Virus record (IMG/VR): IMGVR_UViG_3300025707_000004
DNA: 64,000 nt
Reading direction: 5' to 3' (one strand)
Source of the DNA: a virus
Made by a program: the position numbers and the translations under genes. Of the stretch, positions 4,438 through 59,099 are shown piece by piece. The first letter of the stretch is position 1. Every line of letters begins with the position of its first letter. A model generated the notes under the pieces. That model had not been told where the DNA came from. It did no database searches and worked only from the letters and a program-made list of their open reading frames with translations.

Positions 4438-4517
4438 AAGAAGGAGAACCTGTTTAGCGCAGGCCGTGCGCTGCTAGTATGGGCGAAGGTACGCCCCAAA
4501 ACAGAGGCTTTTCCCCG

Positions 4518-22011: not shown

Positions 22012-22219
22012 TGAGGCGCACTACCCCGTTCTTCTTCGCATAGACCGTGTAGTTCGGTAGGACTTCGCGAAGCGCGGCCTTGAAGCCCGCATTATTAGCG
22101 ACTAATAAAAGGGGGTCGACCTGTAGGACGAAGCCACCTTCGGTAGTCTCAATCTTGTGGACCAGCCCACTGAGGGCGCGATCCACGTGGGCAAGGTCAT
22201 CTGGTATTGTCGAGGACAT
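21860..22219 (-). CDS. hypothetical protein
   Basis: Protein-like N-terminal 70 aa. Divergent from the terminase and contains a palindrome copy. Confidence 0.4.
   Translation of the reverse strand: MSSTIPDDLAHVDRALSGLVHKIETTEGGFVLQVDPLLLVANNAGFKAALREVLPNYTVYAKKNGVVRLIKRKQNTRRNRAGSRLKLEQVGEAFETQAVEVQEQGDDGAADAVDFFAPD
22093..22107. repeat. TATTAG-CGA-CTAATA palindrome
   Basis: Read directly. Confidence 0.9.
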
Positions 22220-41800: not shown

Positions 41801-43216
41801 GAGATGCTGACCTTCAACAGCGCTGACGAGGTCGAGAGCCTCATCGGTCCGGTCACCCCGGAGAACCCGCTGGCGTTCGGTCTCGCGAAGGCGTTCCTCA
41901 ACCGGACCAACGTGAACATCTCTGCGATGGGTCTGGGGGAGGTCACTGCAGACGCCCCCAACGGTACGGTCGACGCTTACGCGCAGGCCCTGGACTTCCT
42001 CCGAAAGAAGGAGGTCTACGCCCTCGCCCCGCTCACGCAGGACGCGGAGGTCACCAAGCTCTTCAACCTGCACGTCACCGACATGTCGGCGGCGGTTCAG
42101 GGCAAGGAGCGCATCGCGTTCGTGAACGAGGCTCTGCCCACTGAGAAGGTCAGCACGCTGGTCATCTCGGGGTCGATGACCATCACCGACATCGGTGGTG
42201 GCAAGTTCGAGCTGGAGTTCGCCGACGAGACGCTCAACGTCTCCACCGCTATCGACGGCAAGCTGAACGCGGACGGCAATGCCCTCAGTGGTGCTGCCGG
42301 CACGGACTACACGCCGGACGACGGGGTCTACCTCGACCGCGCCGGTGATGCGTTCAAGTGGCTGGTGACCAAGGTGGTCAGCGCGACCGTCGTGCGAATC
42401 GACACCACCAACATCTACATCCCGGGCTTCGGTCCGGGTTCAGGTGGTAACGACGACAACTACTTCCGGACGACCGCAGCTGACCTTGACGACTTTGAGG
42501 TTGATGGGGAGACCTGCTCCATCCTGGTCCGTCAGGCAGCCGTCAAGACCAGCACGACGGCCGGACGGCTGGCTGTTTGCGAGACGATGGCGGAAATCAC
42601 GGGCGGAGCTACCGGTTACCAGAACCGGCGCTTGTTCTACACCCAGCCTGAGAAGGTCGGGACGGACAGCGCGGGCACGGAAATCGTGGTCCCCGGTTAC
42701 TACCTGTGTGCGGCCCAGGCGGCGATGGTGGCTCAGCTGCCCGCGCAGCAGCCGCACACGAACCTGCCGATGGTTGGTTTCACCCGGCCCATCGGGTCGA
42801 GTGACCTCTTCTCGGAAGACGAGATGGCTACCGCGGCTGCGGGTGGCGTGTTCTGGATTCTCCAGGATGCCCCCGGTGGTCCTCTGGCCTGTCGGCACCA
42901 GCTGTCGACGGACCTCAGCTCCATCAAGTCGCAGGAGCTGTCCATCACCAAGGCCATCGACATCTACGCCAAGGCCATTCGGGCTGCGACGAAGCGGATG
43001 ATTGGTCGCAACGTCATCGACAAGTCGTTGCTGGATGCGCTGAACATCTCCCTCCAGGCGGTGTCGGCGAACTACGCGGGTCCGAAGAAGGCCCTCGCAG
43101 CTGCTTCGGTGTCCAGCATCGCTCAGGATACGACTCGCCCGGATGGCGTTCTCGTGACCGTGGATACCATCACGTGGTACCCCTTCAACCGGCTGCGTCT
43201 CACGATTGTGGCCTAG
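38894..43216 (+). CDS. contractile tail sheath protein with large insertions
   Basis: N-terminus RPSVEIDQ...CIVGP. C-terminal sheath core YALAPLTQD, VPGYYLCAA, CRHQLSTD, ELSITKAID and YPFNRLRLTIV. 1440 aa. Confidence 0.8.
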   Translation: MAQLRRPSVEIDQQLSAAAPTVLEPDLVACIVGPCFQIVEPLDADGALNAKAQVLTGAVIRSSAAVGAAIAGSGKKLSIAVDGAPGQVINLPVTVGGATLSQEIVQNSINAQLTGATALFQDNKLVLATVTKGRSARLKLEVIAADAYTLLNLTADTETLGTDGYTGQDYEVGFGDLPSPMASIGEVAIDADDVTPYRYFAGTLQPFRDDASGNWNSFTGSASEFANVVTSLVNQPALGNLRTNLTGRSIPGSKTNTLVHTGREASIKIPLAHLAKGSGTEQWPDVTGLNWLNVEAIGLQNWRKDQANGVPGNFIGALGNAVNVKFTTVVGLDAGTAKFVYTSGTKTLDVQRQAVTVTYDALQTALDAGIGGMDTAKDLIVTLNFADGMGAVPFLPTAGLQAEWHCGGGEDAPNFKADHTTIVASITGAMPVEAADTAETELGISGKLSLSIHGGPWIDVDMSGVVVDAIHAVAGISCTSVAVFSPDDDNGDATVGKSINVLRISTTDGGLGPDSSLEIKADNDAILETLFGGFKSRTATLSGIGTAGGAGWQDARRRHVLAKANYNSRAGASRDGALVPGAQTIAYTGLTSPAFILCDVTLGALADHDGVLDVKHSAYDGGAGTVVSLAIDAFVGTPTLAEVVKEIDEQIQAEADPGGGDLDTFIGVSELNGRICFFDRKHVNGATIRLLSDAAGSTTAAFETALGGAAASFDQDATTVTNASCKIQDKGANFALRMIEVGHAFSNGVFPSTFTVTSESDLTDSVLSSVAGESAIVYSTGAVTITFSGENVLDRVVADDDELSLLLRFTGTGDATTSDTALTFRRVWANAFHSEQISYKGRLFTGGAAKVKPGDMMFNNGAILGRVVALNDFVIGGSTFTGGELVLSEFSVDNNKDLANWNIVAENLPDSVDRPDLAPEMVVDTLLERFVVKGGVNRDAAGIPMGGVAPVYVGYKALRKDVSAAAVSPEMLTFNSADEVESLIGPVTPENPLAFGLAKAFLNRTNVNISAMGLGEVTADAPNGTVDAYAQALDFLRKKEVYALAPLTQDAEVTKLFNLHVTDMSAAVQGKERIAFVNEALPTEKVSTLVISGSMTITDIGGGKFELEFADETLNVSTAIDGKLNADGNALSGAAGTDYTPDDGVYLDRAGDAFKWLVTKVVSATVVRIDTTNIYIPGFGPGSGGNDDNYFRTTAADLDDFEVDGETCSILVRQAAVKTSTTAGRLAVCETMAEITGGATGYQNRRLFYTQPEKVGTDSAGTEIVVPGYYLCAAQAAMVAQLPAQQPHTNLPMVGFTRPIGSSDLFSEDEMATAAAGGVFWILQDAPGGPLACRHQLSTDLSSIKSQELSITKAIDIYAKAIRAATKRMIGRNVIDKSLLDALNISLQAVSANYAGPKKALAAASVSSIAQDTTRPDGVLVTVDTITWYPFNRLRLTIVA

Positions 43217-48813: not shown

Positions 48814-48992
48814 ACCTGGACTCCCGTCTCGACAGCCACCTCGTAGTACTCGTCCTTGTTGTCTTCGTCCCAGCCGGCACCATCGAGCGCCGCCTTGACG
48901 GCCTCGGTCACCTGCTCACAGGCAGGGCCGACGACGCCGCTGACCTCCATGGTGGCGTTGCCGTTCCTGTCTACGATGATTTCGATTTCCAT
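48810..48992 (-). CDS. DUF2997-like small protein
   Basis: MEIEIIVDRNGNATMEVSGVVGPACEQVT...EYY pattern. Confidence 0.6.
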   Translation of the reverse strand: MEIEIIVDRNGNATMEVSGVVGPACEQVTEAVKAALDGAGWDEDNKDEYYEVAVETGVQV

Positions 48993-49819
48993 TCGTCCAG
49001 CGCCTTTATGTAGTGAGCACGTTTCCGCGCTAGTTGGTTTCTTGCGGCCCGGTAGCCCGGACCAAAGTTGGTGTTGGTTACGGGGTCCTTCCACCAAGCC
49101 CCTACGCGTAGGAAGAGCCCGGTGTGCTGCAGGTACATGAGCAGCTCGTATGTCTCGTCTATTCCCCGCCGCGGCCAGATGGACACCTTGGTCTCCGCGT
49201 CCTTTCGGGTGCGGCCGTTGGCTATGAGCAGGCGGACCCGCGCCCGTTGCTCAGCGAGCTGGCCGTAGATGGTCCTGAAGGACCCCTTTTGCATCTCGAT
49301 GGCGTGGTCCATATGGCAGCTGACGGTGTCGTGCAGGTAGGGGTGGATGCCATGCTCCATGCTCCAGCGCATCTGGTTTGCGACCACAACGAGGGCGCCA
49401 ACGGCTTTAGCCGTGGACCGGAGCATGGAGAGCCCCTGGTCTATTAGCCGCCGTTCTGCGTACGGGACGTGCGCCCACAGCGCGGTGTTGGAGGTCGCGG
49501 AGGTCACCAGTCCAGGGAGGTGGTCAATCAGGACGACCCGCACTCCCTCCTTCAGCATGTGGTAGGCCGTCTCGAAGCCAAGCTCCCCGGTACCGGGGAC
49601 GGCGATGATTGGGTCGACCCTCAGCTGGCGGAGCCACCTGGGGTCGGGGATGGTTGTGGCGACCAGACCGGTAGGCTCTGGCCGCGCTGTTTTCAGGATG
49701 GCTCTGCCCAGCGTGGATACACCCGAGTCAGGCATACCCCACATGGCGAGTACGCCCGGACGGAGTCCGCCCGCGACTACGGCGTCCAATACGCCGAGCC
49801 CCGTCCGGTACGTTCTCAT
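48971..49819 (-). CDS. RecA-like protein with degenerate Walker A
   Basis: TGLGVLDAVVAGGLRPG, GMPDSGVST (Lys absent), LIDHL, VVANQMR and C-terminal GAWW...GPG. Confidence 0.7.
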   Translation of the reverse strand: MRTYRTGLGVLDAVVAGGLRPGVLAMWGMPDSGVSTLGRAILKTARPEPTGLVATTIPDPRWLRQLRVDPIIAVPGTGELGFETAYHMLKEGVRVVLIDHLPGLVTSATSNTALWAHVPYAERRLIDQGLSMLRSTAKAVGALVVVANQMRWSMEHGIHPYLHDTVSCHMDHAIEMQKGSFRTIYGQLAEQRARVRLLIANGRTRKDAETKVSIWPRRGIDETYELLMYLQHTGLFLRVGAWWKDPVTNTNFGPGYRAARNQLARKRAHYIKALDEWKSKSS

Positions 49820-51423
49820 TGAGTCCTTCTTCCTCGACTTCCTCGTTTGAGCCGCCCGACGCGAGTACCGGTAGGCCCGGCAGGGACAGCATCCTCTTCA
49901 GGCGCCGTAGCGTATACGGCTCGGCCCTCCGCCCACGAGCGAAGGTTCTCCAGTTTCTCCTTCATCGTCCGTGAGATAGGCACCACTACTGTTTGGGCAG
50001 CGATGATGTCGTTCTCGTTGAACTCACGGCTCTCAGCAAAGGCGGAGAACATGGCGCTCTCGATGAGGGTCTCTATCTCCGCCCCCGTGTAGCCCGCGCT
50101 CTTCTGAGCGAGGAGGTCGAGGTCGTAGTTCCCCCCATCCCGCCCCCGAGCACGGAGGTGAATCGAGAGAATCTCCTTGCGCTCGACGGTGTTGGGGAGG
50201 TCGACGAAGAAGATGCTGTCGAAGCGACCAGCGCGCAGGGCTTCAGGCGGTAGCTTTGACACGTCGTTCGCCGTGGCCACCACGAACACGGGAGAGGTCT
50301 TCTCCTGCATCCACGTCAACCATGTGCCGAAGACGCGGTCCGAGGTACCTCCGTCCCTCTCCCCGCCGCCGCTGCCCATACCCTTCTCAAGCTCATCCAC
50401 CCAGAGCACACAAGGGCTGATTACCTCAGCAAGCTGAAGCGCCTCACGGAGCTGCTTCTCGGACTGTCCGAGGTAGCTGCCCATGATTTTGCCCAGGTCC
50501 AGTCGGACCACGGGGAGGTTCCACTCGCCGCCGATGGCTTTGGCTACCCAACTCTTGCCACCGCCGGGAACCCCGACAAGTAGCAGCCCCTTGGGGAGAG
50601 GCAGCTGGTATTCCCTCGCTTCTTGCGAGAAAGCAAGCTTCCGCTGCCCCAGCCAGCTCTTGAGGGTGCCCATGCCACCCACGGACTCAAGACCGTTCAA
50701 AGAGTCCCAAAACTCAAGGAACCCGCTCCGCTTGATGATGCCCTTCTTCTCTGCCGTGATTATCCGCGGGTCGAAGCGGCCGGTTGAGCAGAAGCTGCTG
50801 GCGAGGGCGTTACCGACCTCATGAATAGTCAGACCCAGTGAGGCCCCGCTGACCTCCCACACCTGGACGGGTGTTAGCTCAAGTTCTTGGCTGTCCCCGT
50901 ACATCGTCACGATGTCGGTCAGCTCTTCACGGGTTGGTAGGGGCCAGTGCATGACCGTGACGGTCTTCTCTAGCCGTTTGGGGATGTTCACCTCAGCGTC
51001 AACGATGATGATGCTGTGGGGCAACCCCTGCGTCGATATCTTCTGCGCTATATCTTTCAGCTGCCGGAGGATTGGGTAGGCATTCCCGGTAGTAAGGAAA
51101 TGGCAGAAGTCCCTCAGTATCCAGACCCACGCATCAACCTGCCCACCACTCGAATCGAGGCGGGAGTTGATGTACTGCAGGGCACCTACTGGGGACTTCA
51201 CCGAGTTGTCGTCAACGGCCTTATCAGGCTCGGGGCTGTACAAGGTCTGCACAGCTTGGCTCAACGACCAGCGGACCACGGCCGTGCGGCCGTTCTCCAC
51301 CTCGTCTCCACTCCTTATGTGTTCGAGGATGGCTGCCTCGACCCGGTCCTCTTCGTGCGACTGAATCGCGAGGACCGGGTACGCAGCGTCGAGATACACG
51401 CCAAGCTGTTCTTTGGCGCTCAT
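49816..51423 (-). CDS. AAA+ ATPase (Ycf46-like)
   Basis: Inactive N-terminal AAA-like domain. PKGLLLVGVPGGGKS Walker A, LWVDELEKG Walker B, and ATANDVSKLPPEALRAGRFD second region of homology. Confidence 0.9.
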   Translation of the reverse strand: MSAKEQLGVYLDAAYPVLAIQSHEEDRVEAAILEHIRSGDEVENGRTAVVRWSLSQAVQTLYSPEPDKAVDDNSVKSPVGALQYINSRLDSSGGQVDAWVWILRDFCHFLTTGNAYPILRQLKDIAQKISTQGLPHSIIIVDAEVNIPKRLEKTVTVMHWPLPTREELTDIVTMYGDSQELELTPVQVWEVSGASLGLTIHEVGNALASSFCSTGRFDPRIITAEKKGIIKRSGFLEFWDSLNGLESVGGMGTLKSWLGQRKLAFSQEAREYQLPLPKGLLLVGVPGGGKSWVAKAIGGEWNLPVVRLDLGKIMGSYLGQSEKQLREALQLAEVISPCVLWVDELEKGMGSGGGERDGGTSDRVFGTWLTWMQEKTSPVFVVATANDVSKLPPEALRAGRFDSIFFVDLPNTVERKEILSIHLRARGRDGGNYDLDLLAQKSAGYTGAEIETLIESAMFSAFAESREFNENDIIAAQTVVVPISRTMKEKLENLRSWAEGRAVYATAPEEDAVPAGPTGTRVGRLKRGSRGRRTQ

Positions 51424-51438
51424 CTCTGTTGGTGGGCT

Positions 51439-52740
51439 CTACTCTGCGGCCTTGCTGCTCCGACGCAGCTTGCGCTTGGCCGGGGCAGCGGGCGCCGCCT
51501 CTTCGCCAGCCGGTGCAGCCGCCTCGCTCGCGGGGGCAGCGGCGTCAACCTTCTTGGCCGAACGCTTGCGCGGGGTCTTCTTCGCGGCCTTCTTCGTGGT
51601 CTTCTTCGCGGCGACCTTCTTGGGCTTGGCCTCCTTCTTCGGCTTCGGCTTCGGGATGACCGCGAGGTCGATGTCGTCCGTCACGCCGTAGACCAGCGCG
51701 TTCTCATCGCAGCCCATGTTGAACCACGCCAAGGTCGCCAGAATGGCCTGCCGGCGGTCGTCGTCCATGTCGGTGTAGCAGGCGTCGGAGGTGAGGTCCG
51801 CGGCGAACTTCGCCACCTCACCCGTGGTCCGCTTCGTCTTGGCCTTCTCCACGATGTCGCGAGCGGCCTTCTTGTCGGAGGTCAGCTTCGCCAGCGCGGC
51901 CTTCTGGGCCGTGCGGTTCGGCGTGCCGTCCTTCTTGAACATGTCCTTGCTACTGGCCACCGCGAGGGCCTGCTTCAGGGTGATGGACCCGTCACGGATG
52001 GCGTCGAGGTACTCCGGCAGCGTCTTGGACGCGACCTTGTGGTACTGCGACACCGTCGCCTGGGACTTCGCCAGCAGCGCACTCACCTGGGTCTGGGTCC
52101 GCCCACCGGCGAGCAGCTTCTCCGCACCGGAAATCTCCGACGCGAGGTTGAGGCCCGTGCGAGCGAGGTTCTCGGCGAGGTTGAGGTCGTGCGCCCAGCC
52201 CACGACGTCGGGGGTCAGCTCAGTGGCCTCGGTGAAGACCACGGGGACATCGTCGTACTGGAATTCGATTTCAACGGTGATGACGCCATCCCCGTTGCGG
52301 AAGAGGTACGTCTCGTCCTTCTCCATCTCGCCGATGGTTTCGTCGGCGACGCGCTGGTTGTGCTCCGCAATCATCCGGCGCAGCGTGCGCAAGCCTGCGA
52401 CGCGCTGGAAGCCCGCCACGAGGTGGATGGACTCGATGATGGCGTTGTCGTCGTCGTCGACCATCACCTCGCCGTCGTCACTGGTCTGCACGACCGTGAT
52501 GACCTGCGGCGGGGAGATGAGGTGCTGGCTGTGGCCGGTGCCAGCTTCCCAGACGCTGCGCGCCAGGGACTCGGGGGCGGTCTCACCACCGCGGAGGTTC
52601 TCGATCTTGTCGGTCTCGATTGCGTCCAGGGGCACCCACATCTGGTCCATCGACGGGCCAGAGGACTCAGCCCCCGTGCCAGCGGCGGGAACCGGGGCTG
52701 CGGCTTCCGCCGAGGCGGTGTTTTCGGTCTGCTCACTCAT
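51439..52740 (-). CDS. parB: ParB/Spo0J-family DNA-binding protein with histone-H1-like tail
   Basis: LARSV, LVAGFQRV (GxxR box), LAENLARTGL, HTH TQTQVSALLAKSQATVSQY, AIRDGSITLKQA, and a KKVAAKKTTKKAAKK tail. Confidence 0.8.
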   Translation of the reverse strand: MSEQTENTASAEAAAPVPAAGTGAESSGPSMDQMWVPLDAIETDKIENLRGGETAPESLARSVWEAGTGHSQHLISPPQVITVVQTSDDGEVMVDDDDNAIIESIHLVAGFQRVAGLRTLRRMIAEHNQRVADETIGEMEKDETYLFRNGDGVITVEIEFQYDDVPVVFTEATELTPDVVGWAHDLNLAENLARTGLNLASEISGAEKLLAGGRTQTQVSALLAKSQATVSQYHKVASKTLPEYLDAIRDGSITLKQALAVASSKDMFKKDGTPNRTAQKAALAKLTSDKKAARDIVEKAKTKRTTGEVAKFAADLTSDACYTDMDDDRRQAILATLAWFNMGCDENALVYGVTDDIDLAVIPKPKPKKEAKPKKVAAKKTTKKAAKKTPRKRSAKKVDAAAPASEAAAPAGEEAAPAAPAKRKLRRSSKAAE

Positions 52741-52845
52741 TGTAGGAATGGTCCTTTCTGACCTGTTCAAGTGCGTCAGGGGCGGCGTGTTTGCCCCGAC
52801 GTCGAGCACTCTAGCAGGTGGTTTCGCGGTCAGCGAAACAAAAAT

Positions 52846-52860
52846 TATTAGCGGCTAATA
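52846..52860. repeat. TATTAG-CGG-CTAATA palindrome upstream of parB
   Basis: Read directly. Confidence 0.9.
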
Positions 52861-52908
52861 GGGACCGTGGCTAGCTGCCATGTGTACTTTTGGAGGGTTT
52901 AGAGGGGT

Positions 52909-53073
52909 GACCACAATTTTGTGGTCGGTGTTCTGAATGATTCCGAGTAGTTACGCCCCTTCAGGGCTAGAGGTTTTAGAGGCGACCACAACTTTGTGGT
53001 CAGCGAAGTCAATGATTTCAGGCACTTAGCTGCATTAGTTGCAGTCTGCAAGTGACCACAAGGTTGTGGTCAC
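52909..53073. repeat. array of three GACCACAA-NN-TTGTGGTC palindromes (left)
   Basis: Copies at 52909-52926, 52984-53001 and 53054-53071, about 70-75 bp apart. Confidence 0.92.
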
Positions 53074-54152
53074 CCCTTGGGTGTGTTCGCCCCGTCGCGC
53101 TTGCGCCTCTTTATAGAAGCCAGCCTAGTTCTGGCCGTGTTTACGTCCGCAACTGGCTGTATTTCGCTCTTAATTCGGAGGCTTCTGAGGGTGGAAACGT
53201 CCCCTCTTATCTCAAGTCCTTGTTCTTTAAGGCGAATCTCCACAACACCCAAACGAAGGACCACGTCATCTGCCTCGACGGTGAGGAAGCGCAGCGCGGG
53301 GTAGCTCTGGGCCAGAACCCGCAGCTCCCCGGCGAGGTCGGCCACCATCCGTGCGTCCCTCGAAGAGGACGCAAGTTCTGTCTGCCTTATTGCTTCTACC
53401 TGCAGGTTGATGAGGTTTACGGCATTTACTCGCCCAAGCAGCGCAGCTATCTGGTCAAAGGAGGATTTCATCTGCAGACGGTCTGCGAGACGTAGCGCTG
53501 CGAGGGCGTGAGCGAAGCGCCCCTGCAAGTCTGAGATACCTGAGATGAGTTGTACTCTCTCAGCTTCTAGCTCAGTAATGTTAGTTTCGGTAGCCGCTAT
53601 CACTCCCTCGTCAGCAACGGGCGTTAGCCCGAGAACGGTGCTCCTGACGTTCCGTGCATCTGCCAGCCAGTCAGAGAGTAGGCGCTGCAGGGCCTCCGCT
53701 TCGCGGAAGAACACCCCCGCGTCGTAGACCAGCTCCTCAGCCTCCCAGAGGTACTGGTCAAACATACGTTGTCTGAACGTAGTGAACTGCTCAGGAGAGA
53801 GTGTGAAGTCTTGTAGAGCAGAGAGGAAGTTGGTGTAGAGGCTGGGGACCAGGACCACTGCCGGGGGCAGGGTCTTGTAGGTGTTCAGTTTCTGGAGCCC
53901 CGCCCACACCTCTGGGCAGGCGACGCGGTAGGGCAGGTGCACGGCTACCAGCCGCGAGGCTGGAATGTGCGTCCACTGCAGAATCCGCCCCGTATCCTTC
54001 GTTGAAAGCGAGCCCTCTTCCCAGTACGTATCGTCAGTTGGGTCGTAGAACTCTATTTCTGGAGGCCGTTTTAGGACAGAACTGCGACTGATTTTGATGT
54101 GAACGGTGTCCGGTTTCGAGGGAGAAAGGAACGAAAACTCACGATGGGGCAT
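53070..54152 (-). CDS. coiled-coil protein enclosed by the palindrome arrays
   Basis: About 360 aa from ATG 54152, with a helical/coiled-coil central region. The stop codon lies inside the third left palindrome. Confidence 0.65.
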   Translation of the reverse strand: MPHREFSFLSPSKPDTVHIKISRSSVLKRPPEIEFYDPTDDTYWEEGSLSTKDTGRILQWTHIPASRLVAVHLPYRVACPEVWAGLQKLNTYKTLPPAVVLVPSLYTNFLSALQDFTLSPEQFTTFRQRMFDQYLWEAEELVYDAGVFFREAEALQRLLSDWLADARNVRSTVLGLTPVADEGVIAATETNITELEAERVQLISGISDLQGRFAHALAALRLADRLQMKSSFDQIAALLGRVNAVNLINLQVEAIRQTELASSSRDARMVADLAGELRVLAQSYPALRFLTVEADDVVLRLGVVEIRLKEQGLEIRGDVSTLRSLRIKSEIQPVADVNTARTRLASIKRRKRDGANTPKG

Positions 54153-54182
54153 TTCTCGTCCCAGGTGTGTGCGGGCTCTGGG

Positions 54183-54346
54183 GGTGACCACAACCTTGTG
54201 GTCACCTCTAATACTTCTACAACGGGCCTAAGTATGCAGAATCATTAGAGGTGCTGACCACAAAATTGTGGTCACCCACAGAGTGTGTACGGCTAAGTAC
54301 CTGAAATCATTGAACGTGGTGACCACAATGATTTGTGGTCACCACG
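54183..54346. repeat. array of three GACCACAA-N2-4-TTGTGGTC palindromes (right)
   Basis: Copies at 54186-54203, 54256-54273 and 54321-54340. The last extends to a 32-bp inverted repeat at 54315-54346. Confidence 0.92.
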
Positions 54347-54366
54347 CTCTGTGTGGGTCAAGCCGG

Positions 54367-54381
54367 TATTAGCGGCTAATA
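54367..54381. repeat. TATTAG-CGG-CTAATA palindrome
   Basis: Read directly. Overlaps the stop codon of the 54369-55085 gene. Confidence 0.9.
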
Positions 54382-55085
54382 CGACGACCCTGGTAGGGCG
54401 GGTAGGTGATGGAGTGCCTCTTGAGGTATTGCGTCACCCCGATAGTGACGCTGTAGGACGCGACCTGAGTGTCCGCGTGGGCATTCCACGGCCCGGTGGT
54501 GTGGGCGCCTTTGATGAAGCGGTTCGCGACATCGCTGGGATTGATGACTGGGACCACCCCGGCGTGAACCAGGGCGTCTGCGAGCCATTGAGGGCAGCTG
54601 AGGTCTCGCAGATCCTCAAGCTGGTCAGATGAGAGCACGCCCTCCGCCACGTCGACATTGACCTGGAGGTATGAGCTGAGGGTCTTTCCCAGTACTGCTG
54701 GGCCCTGAGCGCTCTTGTTCGTTGCGTGTGCCATCAGCGCCTGCCAGAAGGTCGTGAACAACCTATCCTTGGCACCGCGGTTGGTGGCTCTGGTCTCTGT
54801 GGCGTTATTGGGCGCCCAACCCCCGCTGAGCACATAGCTCAACGCACGGGGGCCTATCATCATGGCGTCCGGCTTCATGATGATGACTCCCCGAGCCCGC
54901 GCGAACCCCCGTTTGTCCAGGGGCACCCCCATGTACACGGCCTCCCCGTCGAGCACGCTCCTTACGAAGTGTATGTCGATGGGGGGAAGCCGCGCGCCTT
55001 CTCTGTCCTCCGGGAAATACCGGAATTCAAAGGCGGGGACGATTGCGGAGCGGAAGAGCGGCTCCAGCTCAACTTCTATGGCCAC
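54369..55085 (-). CDS. hypothetical protein, last gene of the Ubl operon
   Basis: 238 aa, 3 nt downstream of the E1 gene. Confidence 0.65.
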   Translation of the reverse strand: MAIEVELEPLFRSAIVPAFEFRYFPEDREGARLPPIDIHFVRSVLDGEAVYMGVPLDKRGFARARGVIIMKPDAMMIGPRALSYVLSGGWAPNNATETRATNRGAKDRLFTTFWQALMAHATNKSAQGPAVLGKTLSSYLQVNVDVAEGVLSSDQLEDLRDLSCPQWLADALVHAGVVPVINPSDVANRFIKGAHTTGPWNAHADTQVASYSVTIGVTQYLKRHSITYPPYQGRRISR

Positions 55086-55088
55086 CGG

Positions 55089-55778
55089 CTAGTCGACCGA
55101 GATGAGGAGGCCAGCGGGGTTGAACAGCGAGAAGTTGTAGCGCTGATACAGCTTCTCCTGCTCGCCAAGAAAGGCGCTGGTGACGTACCCCGCCAACGCG
55201 GCACCGATCATCATCCCGCAGAATGGGGTGTTGCGCTCGGTGCAGGGCAGCGGGGAGACGCCGGTCGCGTCGAACGACAGCGGGTACCGCTCGAAAACCC
55301 CCTCCGTGTCCTCCATCCAGGCCGCGTGGATGGAACCGTGCCGAGCACCCATCCGGGCATCCAGCACCAGCTCGGTGGCGGGCAGAAGACACGCCTGCTC
55401 GAACACCTGCTGCCGGACTGCCAGCGAGTCGACCGCGGGGATGATGTAGCTGGTGCCCTCCGGCACCTGCTCCTTCGACTCGAACTTGTCGACGACCGGC
55501 TTGATTTCGACGCCGAGAGTCGCCCCGATGCCCTCGTATAGTGCCTCGACCTTGTCCAAGCCTACGTCACCAAGGCCGTACCCCTGCGGGTAGACGTTGA
55601 CGTTGTCGACCACGTCAAAGTCCATCACCGTGACGTTCTCGAATCCGGTGCGGACCAGCGCCCGGACCAGCCAGCTCCCGATGGACCCCGCCCCGATGAC
55701 CAGGATGCCGTGCTCCTTGGCGCTCTTGACGTCGAGCACTGTGGAGTACCGCGCGTGGTAGTTGGGTTCTTCGCTCAT
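55089..55778 (-). CDS. ThiF/MoeB/E1-family adenylyltransferase (Ubl-activating enzyme)
   Basis: ILVIGAGSIGS, VMDFDVVDNVNVYPQ, KVEAL, AVDS...R and LDARMG motifs. Candidate catalytic Cys in PLPCT. No CxxC Zn pairs. Confidence 0.88.
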   Translation of the reverse strand: MSEEPNYHARYSTVLDVKSAKEHGILVIGAGSIGSWLVRALVRTGFENVTVMDFDVVDNVNVYPQGYGLGDVGLDKVEALYEGIGATLGVEIKPVVDKFESKEQVPEGTSYIIPAVDSLAVRQQVFEQACLLPATELVLDARMGARHGSIHAAWMEDTEGVFERYPLSFDATGVSPLPCTERNTPFCGMMIGAALAGYVTSAFLGEQEKLYQRYNFSLFNPAGLLISVD

Positions 55779-57361
55779 GCCGTTGCCTCCTTGGTGGTCT
55801 TCTTCTTGGTGGTCTTCTTCTTGGTGGTCTTCTTCGGAGGCACCGCCGTGACCTCCCCCGTCTCCGCGTCAACAACCTCCTGCAGCTCCAGCGGGGGCTC
55901 CGGCTCGGGCGTCGGAGGCTGAGTGGCCACCTCACCCCGAGGCGCCCCAAGCTCGGCCCAGCCCTCCGCTTCGAGGCTGTCCGGGACGATGGCAACGAGG
56001 CCGTACTCGTTGTCCTTGAGTTGGTCTAGGGCCTTCTTCCCACCAACACCCATCCAGATGCTGATGGTCGTCTGCCCCGCGCGGACGCGGAGGTTCTTGG
56101 AGAGGCAGCCGGTGGCCATGTACTCCGGCGGGCGCTTCTCCCACATGATGCCGATGGGCCTCGCTTTCCAGAAGCCGCCGGCCATGTTCGCCTCGGTCCC
56201 GTCCATCGCCTTGTCCACATCGTGGAGCACGCGCCGACCGTGGACGGACGCCCCCGCCATCCACCAGCCGCTCGCGTCGTCGTAGGTGCACTGCACCCGC
56301 TTGTACTCGCTGGCGACGATGATCTCGAACTCGGAGTCGGTCTGAGACCAGCTGAGGACTGACCCGCGCTCCTTGGCCTGCTTGCAGAAGGCATCGAGCA
56401 GGTGCCACTCGTCGACACTGTTGGCCGCGAGGCTGGTTTCCTTGACGGCTTTCTCCAGCCCCTCCAGGTCCGAGGGCTTGAGGAAGCCTTCGTAGTAGAG
56501 GACGTGGGCCATGTAGGGCAGAGTTTCCCGAAGGTCGATGGCCGACTTGCTGCGCGCGTTCGCAGACCAGCTCAGCAGGACCGCGAGGTCTGCGGGGAGG
56601 TGACGCTGGGAAGGACCACTACTCCCGCCGTGCCGAGCCCGATGTGCTGCCACCAGCCCGTTCATCGACTGGGGCCAGTAGCTGCTGTCGTCATCGTCTG
56701 TGAGCCCGAGCCGCCGCGCCGTGGCGTGGTTGTAGGCGGGACGAGCCCCAGGGGTCCCGTGGTTCTTCTGCTTGTAGACCGTCACGGGGGCAGTCCCGTA
56801 GCTGGCCTGCTCCTCCAGGGTGATTTGCGCCCAGCTGAGTTCCGACGACACGTCCACGTCGATGGAAAATTCGAGCTTCTCCCCGACCGTGAAGTTCAGC
56901 CCCATGTAGAAGATATCCAGGCGGAGGTAGTAGTCCGCCTTCAGGATGGGCTTGCCGGCGAAGTACTTCGCCGCCACCTTCTTGTTCAGCACGAGGCTGT
57001 ACTGGATGTCCCACTCCAGCTTCTTGGCGGTCGCGATGTCAGTGCCGCTGAAGAAGCACTCCATGACGTCGTGGCTGTGGCCCCACACGACGAGCCGCTC
57101 CATGGTGTACCCGGCGGACTCGCACAGAGCCATCACGTCCTTCGTGTCGAAGATCGTGCTGACCCGGGTGTTTTCCTGCTTCGGGACGATGATGTCCACG
57201 ATGAGCCGGGCATCGTTGGGCGCGCAGACGCATGCCCAACTGCATTCACCGTTGGAGGTGCGGACCAGCTGCATCATCCGATCCATGACCTGCTGCTTGA
57301 ATCGGAGGGGAGGCAGGGTGAACTTCAATTCGGCCGCTGTCGCGGTTTTGGTTCCGCTCAT
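55775..57361 (-). CDS. JAB/JAMM metallopeptidase (deubiquitinase-like) with long C-terminal extension
   Basis: NGECSW...VWGHSHDVMECFFSGTD matches E...HxH-x7-S-x2-D. Lys/Thr-rich tail. Confidence 0.82.
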   Translation of the reverse strand: MSGTKTATAAELKFTLPPLRFKQQVMDRMMQLVRTSNGECSWACVCAPNDARLIVDIIVPKQENTRVSTIFDTKDVMALCESAGYTMERLVVWGHSHDVMECFFSGTDIATAKKLEWDIQYSLVLNKKVAAKYFAGKPILKADYYLRLDIFYMGLNFTVGEKLEFSIDVDVSSELSWAQITLEEQASYGTAPVTVYKQKNHGTPGARPAYNHATARRLGLTDDDDSSYWPQSMNGLVAAHRARHGGSSGPSQRHLPADLAVLLSWSANARSKSAIDLRETLPYMAHVLYYEGFLKPSDLEGLEKAVKETSLAANSVDEWHLLDAFCKQAKERGSVLSWSQTDSEFEIIVASEYKRVQCTYDDASGWWMAGASVHGRRVLHDVDKAMDGTEANMAGGFWKARPIGIMWEKRPPEYMATGCLSKNLRVRAGQTTISIWMGVGGKKALDQLKDNEYGLVAIVPDSLEAEGWAELGAPRGEVATQPPTPEPEPPLELQEVVDAETGEVTAVPPKKTTKKKTTKKKTTKEATA

Positions 57362-58598
57362 AACGCGTCTTGAGCCTTTCGAGTAGGCCGCCCAGATTCT
57401 GGGTCAGCTGGAGATTCGTGTCGGCCGACCCGAGGAGGTCGGGAAAGATGGGCTGCCCGCAGATGCCTTTGGCGTCTGGAAACGGGTTGCCCTGTCGTTT
57501 GGCTTCGGTTCGGAGGCAGTTGGTGTGCGCCACTGTGGGGGTCTGCCCGGGTTTGGGAGAAGGGAGTGTGTCTGCGCAGACAAAACAGCGCGGTGTGCGG
57601 CAAGCGTTCGCGGTGTGTGGCGCCCCACGACCACAGGGACATTCGTCCTCGTCCGTGTGGCAGTCCGTCCAGTTGCTCAGCGCAAGGTACGGGTCCGCGT
57701 GGTTGTAGTGACTGAGTAGGTGGCAGACCAGGATGGCCGCGTCCAACCACCGCCCGTCAGACATGTGGTCTAGCAGCTCTGACGAGCCGGTGCTTCCACA
57801 GCAGAGGCTGCCCCCGCTGTTCGCATGTGGCATGAAGTAGTCCATACCGGCGGTCAGAAGGTCGACGGGCTCGTCAATAAAGGGAGTGATGTACGCCCCC
57901 GCGTGCCGAGAGACATTCCCCTGGTTCAGTCGGATGCGCACGGAGAGCCGGGGGAAGTAGGTATCAATGGGCCACGTACCATCCTCCGAAGTTTCCGCCC
58001 AGGTGCGTGTGATGCGCTTGGTGCGGAAGGACACTTCCAGGAAGGTTGGCCGGTCGATGACGGTGATTCCAGCCCGGCGGTCGATGAGGGCCAGGAAGTA
58101 TCCGACGTTCTCGTCTTCCTCGGGGTAGGGCATACCCGCTTCGATGCGGGTCTTGAGGGCACCCAGTCGCTTCGCAACCTTTGCTTGGTTGCTGTTGTGC
58201 CGCTGGAGCAGGTTCAGGGCGTGCCTGTGTGCCTGCTGGTTCTGTAGCAGTTGGGTATGGGCGTCACTAAGGTTGCTGGCCGCCCGCTCTCCGTCACGCT
58301 TGGCGGTCGATACGCGTTGCTGCAGGGCAAGTACGTCAGCGTCCGCAAGCGCCTTTTGTTCGAGTGCGGCTTCCTTGGCGACCTTCGCCGCCGCGATGGC
58401 TTCTTCTCCGTCGTCGGTTTTCACCATCGCGTCGGCGATAAGATTGGGAAAGGCGTCAGCTTCCGCTTGGAGGTTGACGACCATGCGGGTGAGCCCGGTG
58501 CCCGCCTTTTTGGCGGCGGTATTGTAGCGGTCAACGAGGGCCTGCACGACCTCGCGGTCAGTTGCCCCCGCATCTAAGCCAATGAGGCCGATGCGCAA
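57246..58598 (-). CDS. coiled-coil + E2/UBC-like domain + Cys/His Zn-finger protein
   Basis: AAGGAG RBS before TTG 58598. PHANSGGSLCCG...LLSHYNHADPY resembles the prokaryotic E2 active-site region. C-terminal CPCG...H...C...CFVC...HTNC...C. Confidence 0.6.
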   Translation of the reverse strand: MRIGLIGLDAGATDREVVQALVDRYNTAAKKAGTGLTRMVVNLQAEADAFPNLIADAMVKTDDGEEAIAAAKVAKEAALEQKALADADVLALQQRVSTAKRDGERAASNLSDAHTQLLQNQQAHRHALNLLQRHNSNQAKVAKRLGALKTRIEAGMPYPEEDENVGYFLALIDRRAGITVIDRPTFLEVSFRTKRITRTWAETSEDGTWPIDTYFPRLSVRIRLNQGNVSRHAGAYITPFIDEPVDLLTAGMDYFMPHANSGGSLCCGSTGSSELLDHMSDGRWLDAAILVCHLLSHYNHADPYLALSNWTDCHTDEDECPCGRGAPHTANACRTPRCFVCADTLPSPKPGQTPTVAHTNCLRTEAKRQGNPFPDAKGICGQPIFPDLLGSADTNLQLTQNLGGLLERLKTRYERNQNRDSGRIEVHPASPPIQAAGHGSDDAAGPHLQR

Positions 58599-58611
58599 AG
58601 GTATCTCCTTC

Positions 58612-58644
58612 AAATAGAAAAAGGGCGCGGTTTCCCGCGCCCTT
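58612..58644 (-). terminator. intrinsic terminator between the Ubl and E2 genes
   Basis: Perfect 10-bp stem AAGGGCGCGG/CCGCGCCCTT, GAAA loop on the - strand, and a T-rich tail. Confidence 0.8.
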
Positions 58645-58676
58645 CTAGTTACCGGTGAGGCAGCGGGAAGGGGCTC

Positions 58677-59099
58677 TTAGCAGCCGCCCTCCACCTTCTG
58701 CGACACCTGAACGCGGAACGTGCCCGCGGAGAGGGTTGTGGTGTTCGAGGCCATCGTCGAGGACATGTCCGGCCTGATGACGGAGACCTCGCGCTCGCTG
58801 ATGTTGACGTTGTTGTCCGCCAAGAGGCGGAACAGGTTCACCCCGGCTTCGGCCTCGACCTCGAACTTGCGCTTTCCGGCGCGGTCGATGATGACCCGGG
58901 ACGCGCCACCGCTGCCGCCACCGCTCGACACAGCGGCGGTCGTGGTGTTGGCCGAGGTGAAGCGCGACAGGTCCTCGATCCACGCGGAGATGCCCGTCTT
59001 GCTGGTCCAGGGCGACGCGTAGGCCGCCTTCTGGTCGCGGTCCATGGCCTTCAGAGCGGCCTTGGCGTCGGAGGGGTCGAGGTTCTTGAGGTTATCCAT
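58677..59099 (-). CDS. ubiquitin-like (beta-grasp) protein with N-terminal extra domain, ending KVEGG-C
   Basis: The C-terminal ~70 aa fit a beta-grasp pattern and end in GG plus one residue. A Gly/Ser linker joins it to a helical N-domain. First gene of the E2/JAB/E1 operon. Confidence 0.72.
   Translation of the reverse strand: MDNLKNLDPSDAKAALKAMDRDQKAAYASPWTSKTGISAWIEDLSRFTSANTTTAAVSSGGGSGGASRVIIDRAGKRKFEVEAEAGVNLFRLLADNNVNISEREVSVIRPDMSSTMASNTTTLSAGTFRVQVSQKVEGGC

What the first reader, a model, noticed from the sequence alone, without database searches (positions are those of the whole stretch)
54369..59099. Phage-encoded ubiquitin-like conjugation operon: Ubl(GG-C), E2/Zn-finger, JAB, E1 and an unknown gene
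Seen: five co-directional, tightly packed genes. They encode (1) a beta-grasp-like protein ending KVEGG-C, (2) a coiled-coil protein with an E2-like PH...G-x-L-C motif and a C-terminal Cys/His cluster, (3) a JAMM peptidase (E...HSH...S..D), (4) a ThiF/E1 with a candidate catalytic Cys, and (5) an unknown 238 aa protein. Known: Ubl+E1+E2+JAB is the minimal ubiquitination machinery of bacterial Bil-type antiphage systems and of PRTRC cassettes, which also carry ParB; a ParB gene lies 1.6 kb downstream here. Inference: the phage carries its own protein-conjugation system. JAB would trim the terminal Cys to expose Gly-Gly, E1 and E2 would charge the Ubl, and the Zn-finger could act as a built-in E3/RING-like adaptor. 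Possible roles are tagging host or defence proteins, or countering host Ubl defences. No thiamine or molybdopterin genes are nearby, which argues against a sulfur-carrier role.
Basis: partly seen in the sequence, partly recalled or inferred. Interest (0 to 1): 0.92.

Follow-up and report, generated by a model that had tools for sequence, protein, structure and literature searches.

The report
Phage-encoded ubiquitin-like protein tagging cassette
A large uncultured marine phage carries its own ubiquitin-style kit (tag, activating enzyme, transfer enzyme, trimming protease), built from undescribed protein families, conserved in a clade of 150-190 kb phages, and of a kind studied so far only as bacterial anti-phage defence.

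Summary
All four enzymatic assignments held when tested.

- **Tag (58677-59099):** it folds as a beta-grasp domain. It ends in Gly-Gly plus a variable cap in 12 of 13 distinct homologues.
- **E2 (57246-58598):** it has a UBC-type core. The HP[H/N]-x4-G-x2-C signature sits in the same register as HPNINSNGSIC of UBE2D. The Cys is invariant in 19 of 19 relatives.
- **Protease:** it is a JAMM peptidase (family profile against Rpn11, E 4e-11).
- **E1:** it is a minimal 229-aa ThiF-type enzyme with an invariant crossover-loop Cys179.

The gene order tag-E2-JAB-E1 matches bacterial Bil operons. The proteins fail the Bil, Bub, CBASS and PRTRC membership tests.

The cassette, a fifth orphan gene (X), and Y, ParB-like, AAA+ and RecA-like genes form a collinear block. 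This block recurs in at least ten divergent phage contigs. No relative of the E1 was found in 185,579 prokaryote genomes or 50,697 phage records.

A terminator-like hairpin follows the tag gene in 7 of 7 loci.

The targets and the biological role are unknown. I favour thioester-based tagging linked to the adjacent AAA+ ATPase. The E3-like role of the Cys cluster is untested.

This scan has noted phage-borne ubiquitin-like cassettes before, on other DNA.

The parts
58677..59099 (-). Ubiquitin-like tag precursor, 140 aa. It has an N-terminal helical domain (about residues 1-48), a low-complexity linker, and a beta-grasp domain (66-137), and it ends VEGG-C.
   Evidence: AF2 model: strands and helix in the order b-b-a-b-b-b, pLDDT 74-79. 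The Foldseek PDB matches with a compact superposition are NEDD8, ubiquitin, MoaD and other ubiquitin-like domains, probability 0.96-1.0, TM-score normalised to the target 0.5-0.7. Gly-Gly is kept in 12 of 13 distinct homologues, with a variable 0-3 residue tail in most.
58619..58646 (-). Intrinsic-terminator-like hairpin (12-bp stem, 8 G-C pairs, T run) between the tag gene and the enzyme genes.
   Evidence: Pattern scan. RNA folds of the same intergenic gap in 7 of 7 loci give a strong hairpin of differing sequence, z-scores -2.1 to -6.6.
57246..58598 (-). E2-like conjugating enzyme, 450 aa: a long N-terminal helix, a UBC-type core, and a C-terminal Cys/His cluster.
   Evidence: 17 distant relatives were found among 1.84 billion cluster representatives. 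P257, H258, C266, G268, Y298, N299, P303 and W310 are invariant across the 20 aligned sequences. AF2 model.
58137..58559 (-). N-terminal helix of the E2 (residues 14-154), a probable coiled-coil dimerisation or reach element.
   Evidence: AF2 gives a single helix with pLDDT up to 94. The wide structural search matched only coiled coils here. Relatives give weak myosin-tail, SCP-1 and tropomyosin hits.
57651..58127 (-). UBC-type catalytic core of the E2 (residues 158-316). The motif is MPHANSGGSLC and the candidate catalytic Cys266 is at 57801-57803.
   Evidence: In the VIA re-alignment, 38 of the top 50 rows are UBC E2s; UbcH7 gives Z 6.1, 115 residues aligned, rmsd 4.6. With the core profile searched against PDB sequences, 33 of 38 hits are E2s, and the alignment places the family's Cys on the catalytic Cys of HPNINSNGSICL. 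HP[H/N]...G..C is present in 19 of 19 distinct homologues.
57459..57662 (-). Cys/His cluster (residues 313-380), a probable two-zinc domain.
   Evidence: C320, C322 and C361 are nearly invariant; the family consensus is CxCG..C..CxxC..CxxC. One relative gives Prok-RING_1 at E 0.0023, below the cut-off. The model has pLDDT 40-59 here, so the fold is unresolved.
55775..57277 (-). JAMM/MPN+ metallopeptidase, about 500 aa: an N-terminal JAB domain plus a C-terminal extension of about 330 aa with unknown fold. The HSH..S..D motif is at 57038-57079.
   Evidence: E39, H95, H97, S105 and D108 are invariant in 15 of 15. The profile of 15 homologues gives Rpn11 E 4e-11, an archaeal Rpn11-like protein 1e-8, and CSN5 4e-6. 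The single sequence gives Pfam Prok-JAB at E 9e-4.
55089..55778 (-). Minimal ThiF-type E1, 229 aa, a single adenylation domain. The candidate catalytic Cys179 is at 55242-55244.
   Evidence: Pfam ThiF E 6.6e-18, 65.2 bits against a cut-off of 28.1. PDB relatives: a ThiF-type protein (9egb), TcdA, the SUMO and NEDD8 E1s, MoeB and Cap2. R10, GxGxxG, D53, K76, D117, R122 and D140 are invariant. The Cys of [PGS]CTxxxT is invariant in 19 of 19.
54369..55085 (-). Gene X, 238 aa, an orphan family always found directly after the E1. It is the most conserved gene of the cassette among close relatives.
   Evidence: 83% identical in the relative whose E2 is 56% identical. Homologues sit in the same position in L009, L010 and L014-L022. 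No Pfam, PHROG, NCBIfam, PADLOC, PDB or Atlas match. All homologues come from unnamed metagenome proteins.
48971..54191 (-). Conserved downstream context: Y (53070-54191, unknown), ParB-like (51439-52809), AAA+ ATPase (49816-51423) and a RecA-like gene (48971-49819).
   Evidence: Collinear with the cassette in the window, L001, L009, L014-L016, L019-L022, L029-L036 and L108. The AAA domain scores E 2.5e-28 and resembles FtsH, Cdc48 and PAN.

Best explanation
This is a phage-encoded, thioester-type ubiquitin-like conjugation cascade. I propose it works in these steps.

1. The 140-aa tag is made as a precursor ending Gly-Gly-Cys. A terminator-like hairpin behind its gene probably keeps its level above that of the enzymes (inferred).
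2. The JAMM peptidase removes the cap to expose Gly-Gly. It probably also reverses conjugates (inferred from the variable tails and from how Bil and Rpn11 behave).
3. The minimal E1, presumably a homodimer, adenylates the tag's C-terminus. It takes the tag onto Cys179 in its crossover loop, as UBA5 does with Cys250 (inferred).
4. The tag passes to Cys266 of the UBC-type E2.
5. The E2 transfers it to lysines of target proteins. The E2's coiled coil and Cys-rich zinc domain choose the target in place of a separate E3 (speculative).

Shown here: the four folds and families, the invariant catalytic residues, the processing-type C-terminus, and the deep synteny.

Not shown here: any chemistry, and any target.

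On the role, the cassette is a fixed part of a collinear block (X, Y, ParB-like, AAA+, RecA-like) in a clade of 150-190 kb phages, and it is absent from cellular genomes. I therefore read it as part of the phage's own infection programme, most likely tagging proteins for the adjacent Cdc48/PAN-like AAA+ ATPase. I put about 35% on that specific link.
For: - **Tag:** beta-grasp fold. Gly-Gly with variable caps in 12 of 13 distinct homologues.
- **E2 structure:** UBC core, 38 of the top 50 structural rows are E2s, Z up to 6.1.
- **E2 sequence:** 33 of 38 profile hits in PDB sequences are E2s, with the catalytic Cys aligned. HP[H/N]..G..C is invariant in 19 of 19.
- **JAB:** profile against Rpn11 E 4e-11, with all five JAMM residues invariant.
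- **E1:** Pfam ThiF 6.6e-18. The adenylation residues and Cys179 are invariant.
- **Operon structure:** overlapping or abutting genes. A hairpin follows the tag gene in 7 of 7 loci.
- **Synteny:** the same order recurs at 15-35% identity in more than 15 contigs.
- **Link to the AAA+ gene:** 14 of 16 E1-bearing loci with enough downstream DNA also carry the AAA+ gene.
- **Not cellular:** no relative of the E1 among 185,579 prokaryote species.
- **Not sulfur transfer:** no sulfur-transfer or cofactor genes among the neighbours scanned.
- **Parallel with Bil:** the gene order equals that of Bil operons, where the JAB enzyme pre-processes the tag (doi 10.1101/2023.09.26.559546).
Against: - There is no biochemical evidence of any kind.
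- The E2 fold match is modest. Z is at most 6.1, Foldseek alone gave E above 0.07, and Pfam UQ_con stays below its cut-off in every member. The model's pTM is 0.38, from only 20 sequences.
- The E1 has no separate catalytic-Cys domain, no zinc site and no E2-binding ubiquitin-fold domain. E1-to-E2 transfer therefore cannot be taken for granted.
- X, Y and the long JAB tail are unexplained.
- The AAA+ gene occurs without the cassette in most phages that carry it, roughly 60 of 80 IMG/VR loci and cultured Corndogvirus phages. The functional link is therefore not obligatory.
- One relative ends in Ala-Ala-Gly-Arg, not Gly-Gly.
Confidence: 0.75

Rival explanations
1. The chemistry is the same, but the purpose is different. 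The cassette would be a phage-borne defence or superinfection-exclusion system of the Bil type. It would tag structural proteins of competing phages in a co-infected cell.
For: The gene order tag-E2-DUB-E1 is identical to Bil (doi 10.1101/2023.09.26.559546). The Bil, Bub and CBASS systems that have been studied are tied to anti-phage immunity, demonstrated for Bil and CBASS (PMC11601596, PMC11601603). Phages often carry defence genes (general knowledge).
Against: The cassette sits at a fixed position in a collinear block of core-like genes across contigs that share only 15-35% identity. That is unlike variable defence islands. No relative was found in cellular genomes. There was no hit to any PADLOC defence model apart from generic Cap2-type E1 similarity.
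Confidence: 0.15
2. The cassette is counter-defence. It would tag and inactivate host immune proteins, or its JAB enzyme would strip host Bil-type tags from phage tail proteins.
For: Host Bil systems attach a ubiquitin-like tag to phage tail fibres (doi 10.1101/2023.09.04.556158), so a phage deconjugase would be useful. The JAB enzyme carries a long, variable C-terminal extension that could bind substrates.
Against: A deconjugase alone would be enough. The invariant E1 and E2 cysteines and the phage's own tag argue for conjugation. The host is unknown, so whether it has Bil cannot be checked. Deep conservation with X, Y, ParB and AAA+ is not what a fast-evolving anti-defence gene would show.
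Confidence: 0.1
3. The cassette is a sulfur-carrier system, not protein tagging. The beta-grasp protein would be thiocarboxylated by the ThiF-type enzyme, as with ThiS/MoaD/CysO plus a Mec-type JAMM, to build a thio-cofactor or a modified nucleoside.
For: MoaD and ThiS-type carriers are among the structural matches of the tag. The E1's sequence relatives include ThiF, MoeB and TcdA. A radical-SAM gene lies 6 kb downstream.
Against: A UBC-type E2 with an invariant catalytic Cys is always present. There is no rhodanese, cysteine desulfurase, ThiG/ThiH or MoaE partner nearby. The E1 has no rhodanese domain. The tag carries an extra N-terminal domain, unlike sulfur carriers.
Confidence: 0.05

Closest known systems
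Type I/II Bil (BilABCD) bacterial anti-phage ubiquitination operons (operon classes 6d and 6c/CEHH of Iyer et al. 2006)
   Same: There are four separate genes in the same order: tag, E2, JAB peptidase, E1. The tag is made with extra residues after the conserved Gly, and some tags have N-terminal domains. There is no separate E3. The chemistry is expected to run through thioesters.
   Different: - BilD is a roughly 500-aa E1 with inactive and active adenylation domains, a mobile Cys domain and a zinc site. The E1 here is one 229-aa adenylation domain with the Cys in the crossover loop.
- BilB lacks the HPN-type motif and the last helices. The E2 here has HP[H/N]..G..C and N..DP in the canonical register, plus a coiled coil and a Cys cluster.
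- There is an extra conserved gene X.
- The cassette is phage-encoded and fixed next to ParB-like and AAA+ genes.
- No HMM cross-recognition was seen.
Archaeal eukaryote-like operon of Caldiarchaeum subterraneum (Ub, E1, E2, small RING E3, Rpn11-like; PMC5654768)
   Same: The E2 has a canonical-type active-site signature. The JAMM peptidase's best solved relatives are Rpn11 and the Caldiarchaeum Rpn11-like protein. There may be a RING-like zinc module.
   Different: Here any zinc module is fused to the E2 and its fold is unproven. The E1 is far smaller. The tag has an N-terminal domain. The setting is a phage.
UBA5-type and ThiF/MoeB-type minimal E1 enzymes
   Same: A single adenylation domain with the candidate catalytic Cys directly in the crossover loop. 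UBA5 Cys250 is labelled as catalytic in PMC11601596, and ThiF Cys184 from general knowledge. These enzymes are expected to be homodimers.
   Different: There is no UFM1-type partner set and no zinc motif. The enzyme is paired with a UBC-type E2 and a JAMM peptidase.
PRTRC (ParB-related, ThiF-related cassette) of plasmids and ICEs
   Same: A ThiF-type E1 sits together with a ParB-like gene on a mobile replicon.
   Different: PRTRC_ThiF scores 39.5 bits against a cut-off of 144.75. There was no hit to any other PRTRC model. The ParB-like gene is 1.6 kb away, behind gene Y.
Bub (6E/DUF6527) operons and Type II CBASS Cap2/Cap3
   Same: E1, E2 and peptidase modules of the ubiquitin type on mobile DNA. 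The E1 shows generic similarity to Cap2.
   Different: Bub uses Tyr and Ser oxyesters, fused genes and a DUF6527 protease (PMC11601596). Here both catalytic positions are Cys and the genes are separate. CBASS has an E2-E1 fusion acting on a CD-NTase and has no tag gene.

Membership tests
UBC/E2 superfamily (the 450-aa protein) | An alpha/beta UBC core: helix, four-strand meander, active-site loop, two helices | tested here: met
   Model residues 158-316 align to UbcH7, UbcH5B, Ubc9, Rad6 and Ubc13 with Z 4.7-6.1, 100-116 residues and rmsd 3.6-4.8. 38 of the top 50 rows are E2s. The Z values are modest, and Foldseek alone was not significant.
UBC/E2 superfamily (the 450-aa protein) | An HPN-type motif and a catalytic Cys at fixed spacing | tested here: met
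   HP[H/N]-x4-G-x2-C in the same register as HPNINSNGSIC, followed by N-x2-DP. Present in 19 of 19 homologues. The window's own clade has Met in place of the first His.
UBC/E2 superfamily (the 450-aa protein) | Pfam UQ_con or Prok-E2 gathering score | tested here: not met
   The window protein has no hit. 3 of 20 relatives hit UQ_con, at best 14.3 bits against a cut-off of 27. One relative hits Prok-E2_D at E 0.12.
JAMM/MPN+ peptidases | The E...HxH-x7-S-xx-D zinc site and significant similarity to known members | tested here: met
   The five residues are invariant in 15 of 15. Rpn11 E 4e-11, CSN5 4e-6, archaeal JAMM1 4e-5. The single sequence scores below the Pfam Prok-JAB cut-off, 19.5 against 25.
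ThiF/E1 adenylating enzymes | Pfam ThiF above the cut-off, with intact nucleotide-binding and adenylation residues | tested here: met
   65.2 bits against 28.1. R10, GxGxxG, D53, K76, D117, R122 and D140 are invariant.
Ubiquitin-like beta-grasp modifiers | A beta-grasp fold ending in an exposed or capped Gly-Gly | tested here: met
   for the fold. for the C-terminus: Gly-Gly in 12 of 13 distinct homologues and Ala-Gly in one.
Bil (BilABCD) | Four genes in the order tag, E2, JAB, E1 | tested here: met
   The order in Bil is taken from doi 10.1101/2023.09.26.559546.
Bil (BilABCD) | [quoted passage not shown] | tested here: not met
   The E1 is 216-266 aa in all relatives, with one ThiF domain covering residues 18-211.
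Bil (BilABCD) | Recognition by defence-system or NCBI family models | tested here: inconclusive
   No PADLOC or NCBIfam hit for the tag, E2 or JAB. I did not verify that these libraries hold Bil models.
PRTRC | Curated NCBIfam models for PRTRC ThiF, proteins A-F and ParB | tested here: not met
   TIGR03736 scores 39.5 bits against a cut-off of 144.75. No other PRTRC model matched.
Bub (6E/DUF6527) | Fused Ubl-E2 or JAB-E1 genes, a DUF6527 protease, and a catalytic Tyr (E1) and Ser (E2) | tested here: not met
   The genes are separate, there is no DUF6527 hit, and Cys occupies both positions. The features are taken from PMC11601596.
Type II CBASS (Cap2/Cap3) | An E2-E1 fusion with a CD-NTase substrate gene | tested here: not met
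   There is only partial E1-domain similarity to Cap2 models. No CD-NTase was found among the neighbours.
RING / binuclear treble-clef E3 modules (the C-terminal cluster) | A cross-brace two-zinc fold | tested here: inconclusive
   7-8 conserved Cys/His ligands. Prok-RING_1 at E 0.0023 in one relative, below the cut-off. Model pLDDT is 40-59.

The most novel reading that the evidence does not exclude
The cassette and the neighbouring AAA+ ATPase (which resembles Cdc48, PAN and FtsH) form one phage-encoded tag-and-unfold pathway. The E2 would mark chosen host or phage proteins with the tag. The AAA+ machine would extract or unfold them. The JAB enzyme, whose closest solved relative is the proteasome's Rpn11, would recycle the tag. 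That would be a virus-borne functional analogue of the ubiquitin-Cdc48/proteasome axis in bacteria. It would be built around an E2 whose active-site signature is closer to eukaryotic E2s than those of Bil, Bub or Cap2.
Probability: 0.25. Interest if true: 0.9.

Novelty: new variant of a known kind. Interest (0 to 1): 0.72.

Why it matters
Ubiquitin-like conjugation in the bacterial world has been worked out only for host systems (CBASS, Bil, Bub), where it is shown or proposed to act in defence.

Here a complete cascade sits on the virus side. It is a conserved part of the genome of a whole clade of large marine and environmental phages. It is built from protein families that current catalogues do not recognise.

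If it is active, it would show that phages use covalent protein tagging themselves. It would also offer:
- a very small E1 (229 aa) and a self-contained E2 for mechanistic work;
- a new data point on how the canonical HPN-type E2 and the Rpn11-type peptidase spread before or outside eukaryotes.

Tried and rejected
- **Cultured phage records.** DNA and protein searches of 50,697 records found nothing for the cassette or the E1.
- **First IMG/VR scan.** A scan with the E2 as a single protein found nothing.
- **E2 fold searches.** Foldseek on the full E2 model gave no significant hit. The wide VIA search was swamped by the coiled coil.
- **E2 sequence search.** The three-sequence E2 profile against PDB sequences hit only coiled-coil noise. 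A trimmed 15-sequence core was needed.
- **Genes X and Y.** No match in Pfam, PHROGs, NCBIfam, PADLOC or the Atlas, and none in PDB sequences for X.
- **Best PDB relative of the E1.** I could not trace the paper behind entries 9egb/9egc.
- **Literature.** Searches found no description of a phage-encoded tag-E2-JAB-E1 cassette. The library is incomplete, so this is not proof of absence.
- **PRTRC membership.** Rejected on curated cut-offs.
- **Sulfur-carrier reading.** Rejected because the E2 is invariant and no partner genes are present.

Full report
**What is there.** On the minus strand of the window, five ORFs lie head to tail:
- 58677-59099 (140 aa)
- 57246-58613
- 55775-57361
- 55089-55778 (229 aa)
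- 54369-55085 (238 aa)

Relatives and the public gene call put the second gene's start at 58598, which gives 450 aa. This start has AAGGAG just upstream. They put the third gene's start at about 57277. With these starts, E2 and JAB overlap by about 30 nt, JAB and E1 overlap by 4 nt, and E1 and X are 3 nt apart.

The window belongs to a phage. It holds a large terminase (PHROG 675, E 6e-47), a helicase, and weak sheath-like and protease-like hits. The public contig that carries these proteins is 189.5 kb. No whole cellular genome is held for the window.

**The tag.** No family library recognises the 140-aa protein. An AlphaFold model, built from only three sequences (mean pLDDT 72), gives an N-terminal helical part, a disordered linker, and a C-terminal domain at residues 66-137. 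That domain has strands and a helix in the order b-b-a-b-b-b. Its Foldseek matches with a compact superposition in the PDB are NEDD8, ubiquitin, MoaD and other ubiquitin-like domains. Probabilities are 0.96-1.0 and TM-scores normalised to the target are 0.5-0.7.

The protein ends VEGGC. Twelve of thirteen distinct homologues keep the Gly-Gly, while the tail after it varies: none, C, I, F, KR, RQ, NAC, and one long read-on. The thirteenth ends AAGR. This pattern is typical of modifier precursors that a peptidase trims.

**The E2.** The word-indexed search found only two close relatives. A full HMMER scan of 1.84 billion cluster representatives found 17 more, with E-values from 4e-12 to 1e-3. 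Their alignment shows P257, H258, C266, G268, Y298, N299, P303 and W310 as invariant. The family signature is [YF]xHPH[IV]xxxGxxCLGN ... LxxYNxxDPY.

This signature has the same spacing as HPNINSNGSICLD ... LLxDPNPDDPL of UBE2D. HMMER itself produced that alignment when I searched a 15-sequence profile of the core against PDB sequences. Of 38 hits, 33 were UBC E2s. Each hit was individually weak (E 0.2-1.5), but all placed the family's Cys on the catalytic Cys of that UBE2D motif.

The AlphaFold model (20 sequences, mean pLDDT 67, core pLDDT 75-88) has these parts:
- one long helix, residues 14-154
- a helix, a beta meander, a loop and two helices, residues 158-316
- a low-confidence Cys-rich tail

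Foldseek alone was not significant, and the wide search was taken over by the coiled coil. The re-alignment of Foldseek's candidates put UBC E2s in 38 of the top 50 rows. Z was 4.7-6.1, with 100-116 residues aligned, covering nearly the whole UBC core.

Pfam UQ_con is the family hit by the most members, but always below its cut-off. HP[H/N]..G..C is present in all 19 distinct homologues collected, and one homologue has a literal HPN. I take the UBC assignment as well supported. The structural score on its own is modest.

**The Cys/His cluster.** The tail has 7-8 conserved ligands, with consensus CxCG..C..CxxC..CxxC. One relative gives a sub-threshold Prok-RING_1 hit. The model is unreliable in this region, so a RING-like E3 role cannot be judged.

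**The peptidase.** The single sequence gives only a weak Prok-JAB hit and a weak Rpn11 hit. A profile of the N-terminal domains of 15 homologues gives Rpn11 at E 4e-11, the Caldiarchaeum Rpn11-like protein at 1e-8, and CSN5 at 4e-6. Archaeal JAMM1, AMSH and BRCC36 follow. The Glu, the two His, the Ser and the Asp of the JAMM site are invariant. In the window protein, about 330 further residues have no match.

**The E1.** Pfam ThiF scores 65.2 bits against a cut-off of 28.1. Its solved relatives are a ThiF-type protein (9egb), TcdA, the SUMO and NEDD8 E1s, MoeB, Cap2, MccB and ATG7. At 229 aa it is a bare adenylation domain. The Arg finger, the GxGxxG loop and the acidic and basic active-site residues are invariant. 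A Cys in the crossover loop, Cys179 in the motif [PGS]CTxxxT, is invariant in 19 of 19 homologues. The neighbouring Cys187 is not invariant. This placement resembles UBA5 and ThiF. It does not resemble the separate Cys domain of BilD or of canonical E1s.

**Gene X.** The 238-aa protein matched nothing in any library. It still follows the E1 in nearly all relatives. Among close relatives it is the best conserved gene of the set, at 83% identity where the E2 is at 56%. Its only homologues are unnamed metagenome proteins, some on contigs of up to 182 kb.

**Conservation and context.**
- Contigs carrying the E2 relatives show the same order: small protein, E2, JAB, ThiF and, where the contig reaches that far, X.
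- A scan of IMG/VR with the E1 alignment gave 15 viral contigs, mostly 150-181 kb.
- HMM surveys of these loci, and of 80 further loci fetched through the AAA+ gene, show a collinear block: tag, E2, JAB, E1, X, Y, ParB-like, AAA+, RecA-like. It is present in the window, L001, L009, L014-L016, L019-L022, L029-L036 and L108. Protein identities are only 15-45%.
- A second, more distant group keeps E2-JAB-E1 next to the AAA+ gene without detectable X or Y.
- Of 16 E1-bearing loci with enough downstream DNA, 14 carry the AAA+ gene.
- The reverse does not hold. About 60 of 80 AAA+ loci, and cultured Corndogvirus mycobacteriophages, have the AAA+ gene without the cassette.
- No relative of the E1 was found in one genome from each of 185,579 prokaryote species, or in 50,697 phage records.
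- A strong terminator-like hairpin lies between the tag gene and the E2 gene in 7 of 7 loci examined, with unrelated sequences. It is conserved by position, which fits higher expression of the tag than of the enzymes.

**How it most likely works.** The proposed steps are:
1. JAB trims the cap.
2. The E1 adenylates Gly139 and forms a thioester on Cys179.
3. The tag passes to Cys266 of the E2.
4. The E2 transfers it to lysines of targets chosen by the E2's own extensions.
5. JAB can reverse the mark.

The folds, the catalytic residues and the synteny are shown. Every chemical step is inferred by analogy with Bil (doi 10.1101/2023.09.26.559546) and with eukaryotic systems.

Three observations bear on the role: the fixed position in a core-like block, the absence from cellular genomes, and the one-sided dependence on the AAA+ gene. 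Together they lead me to favour a role in the phage's own programme, linked to the Cdc48/PAN-like ATPase. A mobile defence island seems less likely to me. Defence or exclusion, counter-defence and sulfur transfer remain as rivals, at about 15%, 10% and 5%.

**Comparison with known systems.**
- *Bil.* The nearest system is Bil, with the same four parts in the same order, but the cassette fails the defining E1 architecture. Its E2 is of a different, more canonical type.
- *Bub.* It differs from Bub, which uses Tyr and Ser oxyesters, fused genes and a DUF6527 protease (PMC11601596).
- *CBASS.* It differs from CBASS, which has an E2-E1 fusion, a CD-NTase and no tag gene.
- *PRTRC.* It differs from PRTRC, whose curated models it does not meet.
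- *Lambda-type tail assembly.* The TAPI/gpK pairing of lambda-like phages has a tag-like domain and a JAB domain but no E1 or E2 (PMC1779556).

I found no paper that describes this cassette. Earlier notes of this scan report other phage-borne ubiquitin-like cassettes on other DNA, so the theme recurs. I did not test whether those belong to the same families.

**Verdict.** The cassette is a new variant of a known kind of system, in an unusual carrier, with an unexplained fifth gene and a suggestive link to an AAA+ ATPase.

Noticed in passing
window 48971-59099; L001, L009, L014-L016, L019-L022, L029-L036, L108: The cassette is the upstream end of a nine-gene collinear block: tag, E2, JAB, E1, X, Y, ParB-like, AAA+, RecA-like. 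DUF2997 and radical-SAM (Fer4_12) genes follow. The E1 almost always has the AAA+ gene nearby, but most AAA+ loci lack the cassette.
   Followed up: partly
window 53070-54191: Gene Y (373 aa) is conserved in position between X and the ParB-like gene in at least ten contigs. It matches no family; the Atlas gave only low-scoring helical proteins.
   Followed up: partly
window 22080-25088: The large terminase ORF is 1002 aa. The terminase matches cover only about half of it, in two pieces, and residues 245-342 give a weak thymidylate-synthase PHROG hit. This suggests an insertion or fusion, possibly an intein-like element.
   Followed up: no
window 4479-11954: A single ORF of 2491 aa, and another of 1440 aa at 38894-43216 with only a weak sheath-like hit. 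Neither was examined.
   Followed up: no
L012 7013-12153: In this distant relative, the gene before the E2 encodes a 344-aa Cys-rich protein, not a small tag, and the JAB-motif ORF is much longer (756 aa as called).
   Followed up: no
contig of P0007 (no DNA held): A variant locus. The E2 is followed by a reverse-strand 88-aa gene and a 101-aa gene before ThiF and X, with no JAB-sized gene between them.
   Followed up: no
L024 2415-4295: This 626-aa E2 relative carries a literal HPN (FPHPNVNTGRLC), which links the phage family's HPH motif to the canonical E2 motif.
   Followed up: partly
L013 (Mycobacterium phage Catdawg, NC_022057.1): A 35% identical AAA+ ATPase lies a few genes from a ParB-like gene in cultured Corndogvirus phages that have no ubiquitin-like cassette. 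The AAA+/ParB pairing is therefore older or wider than the cassette.
   Followed up: partly
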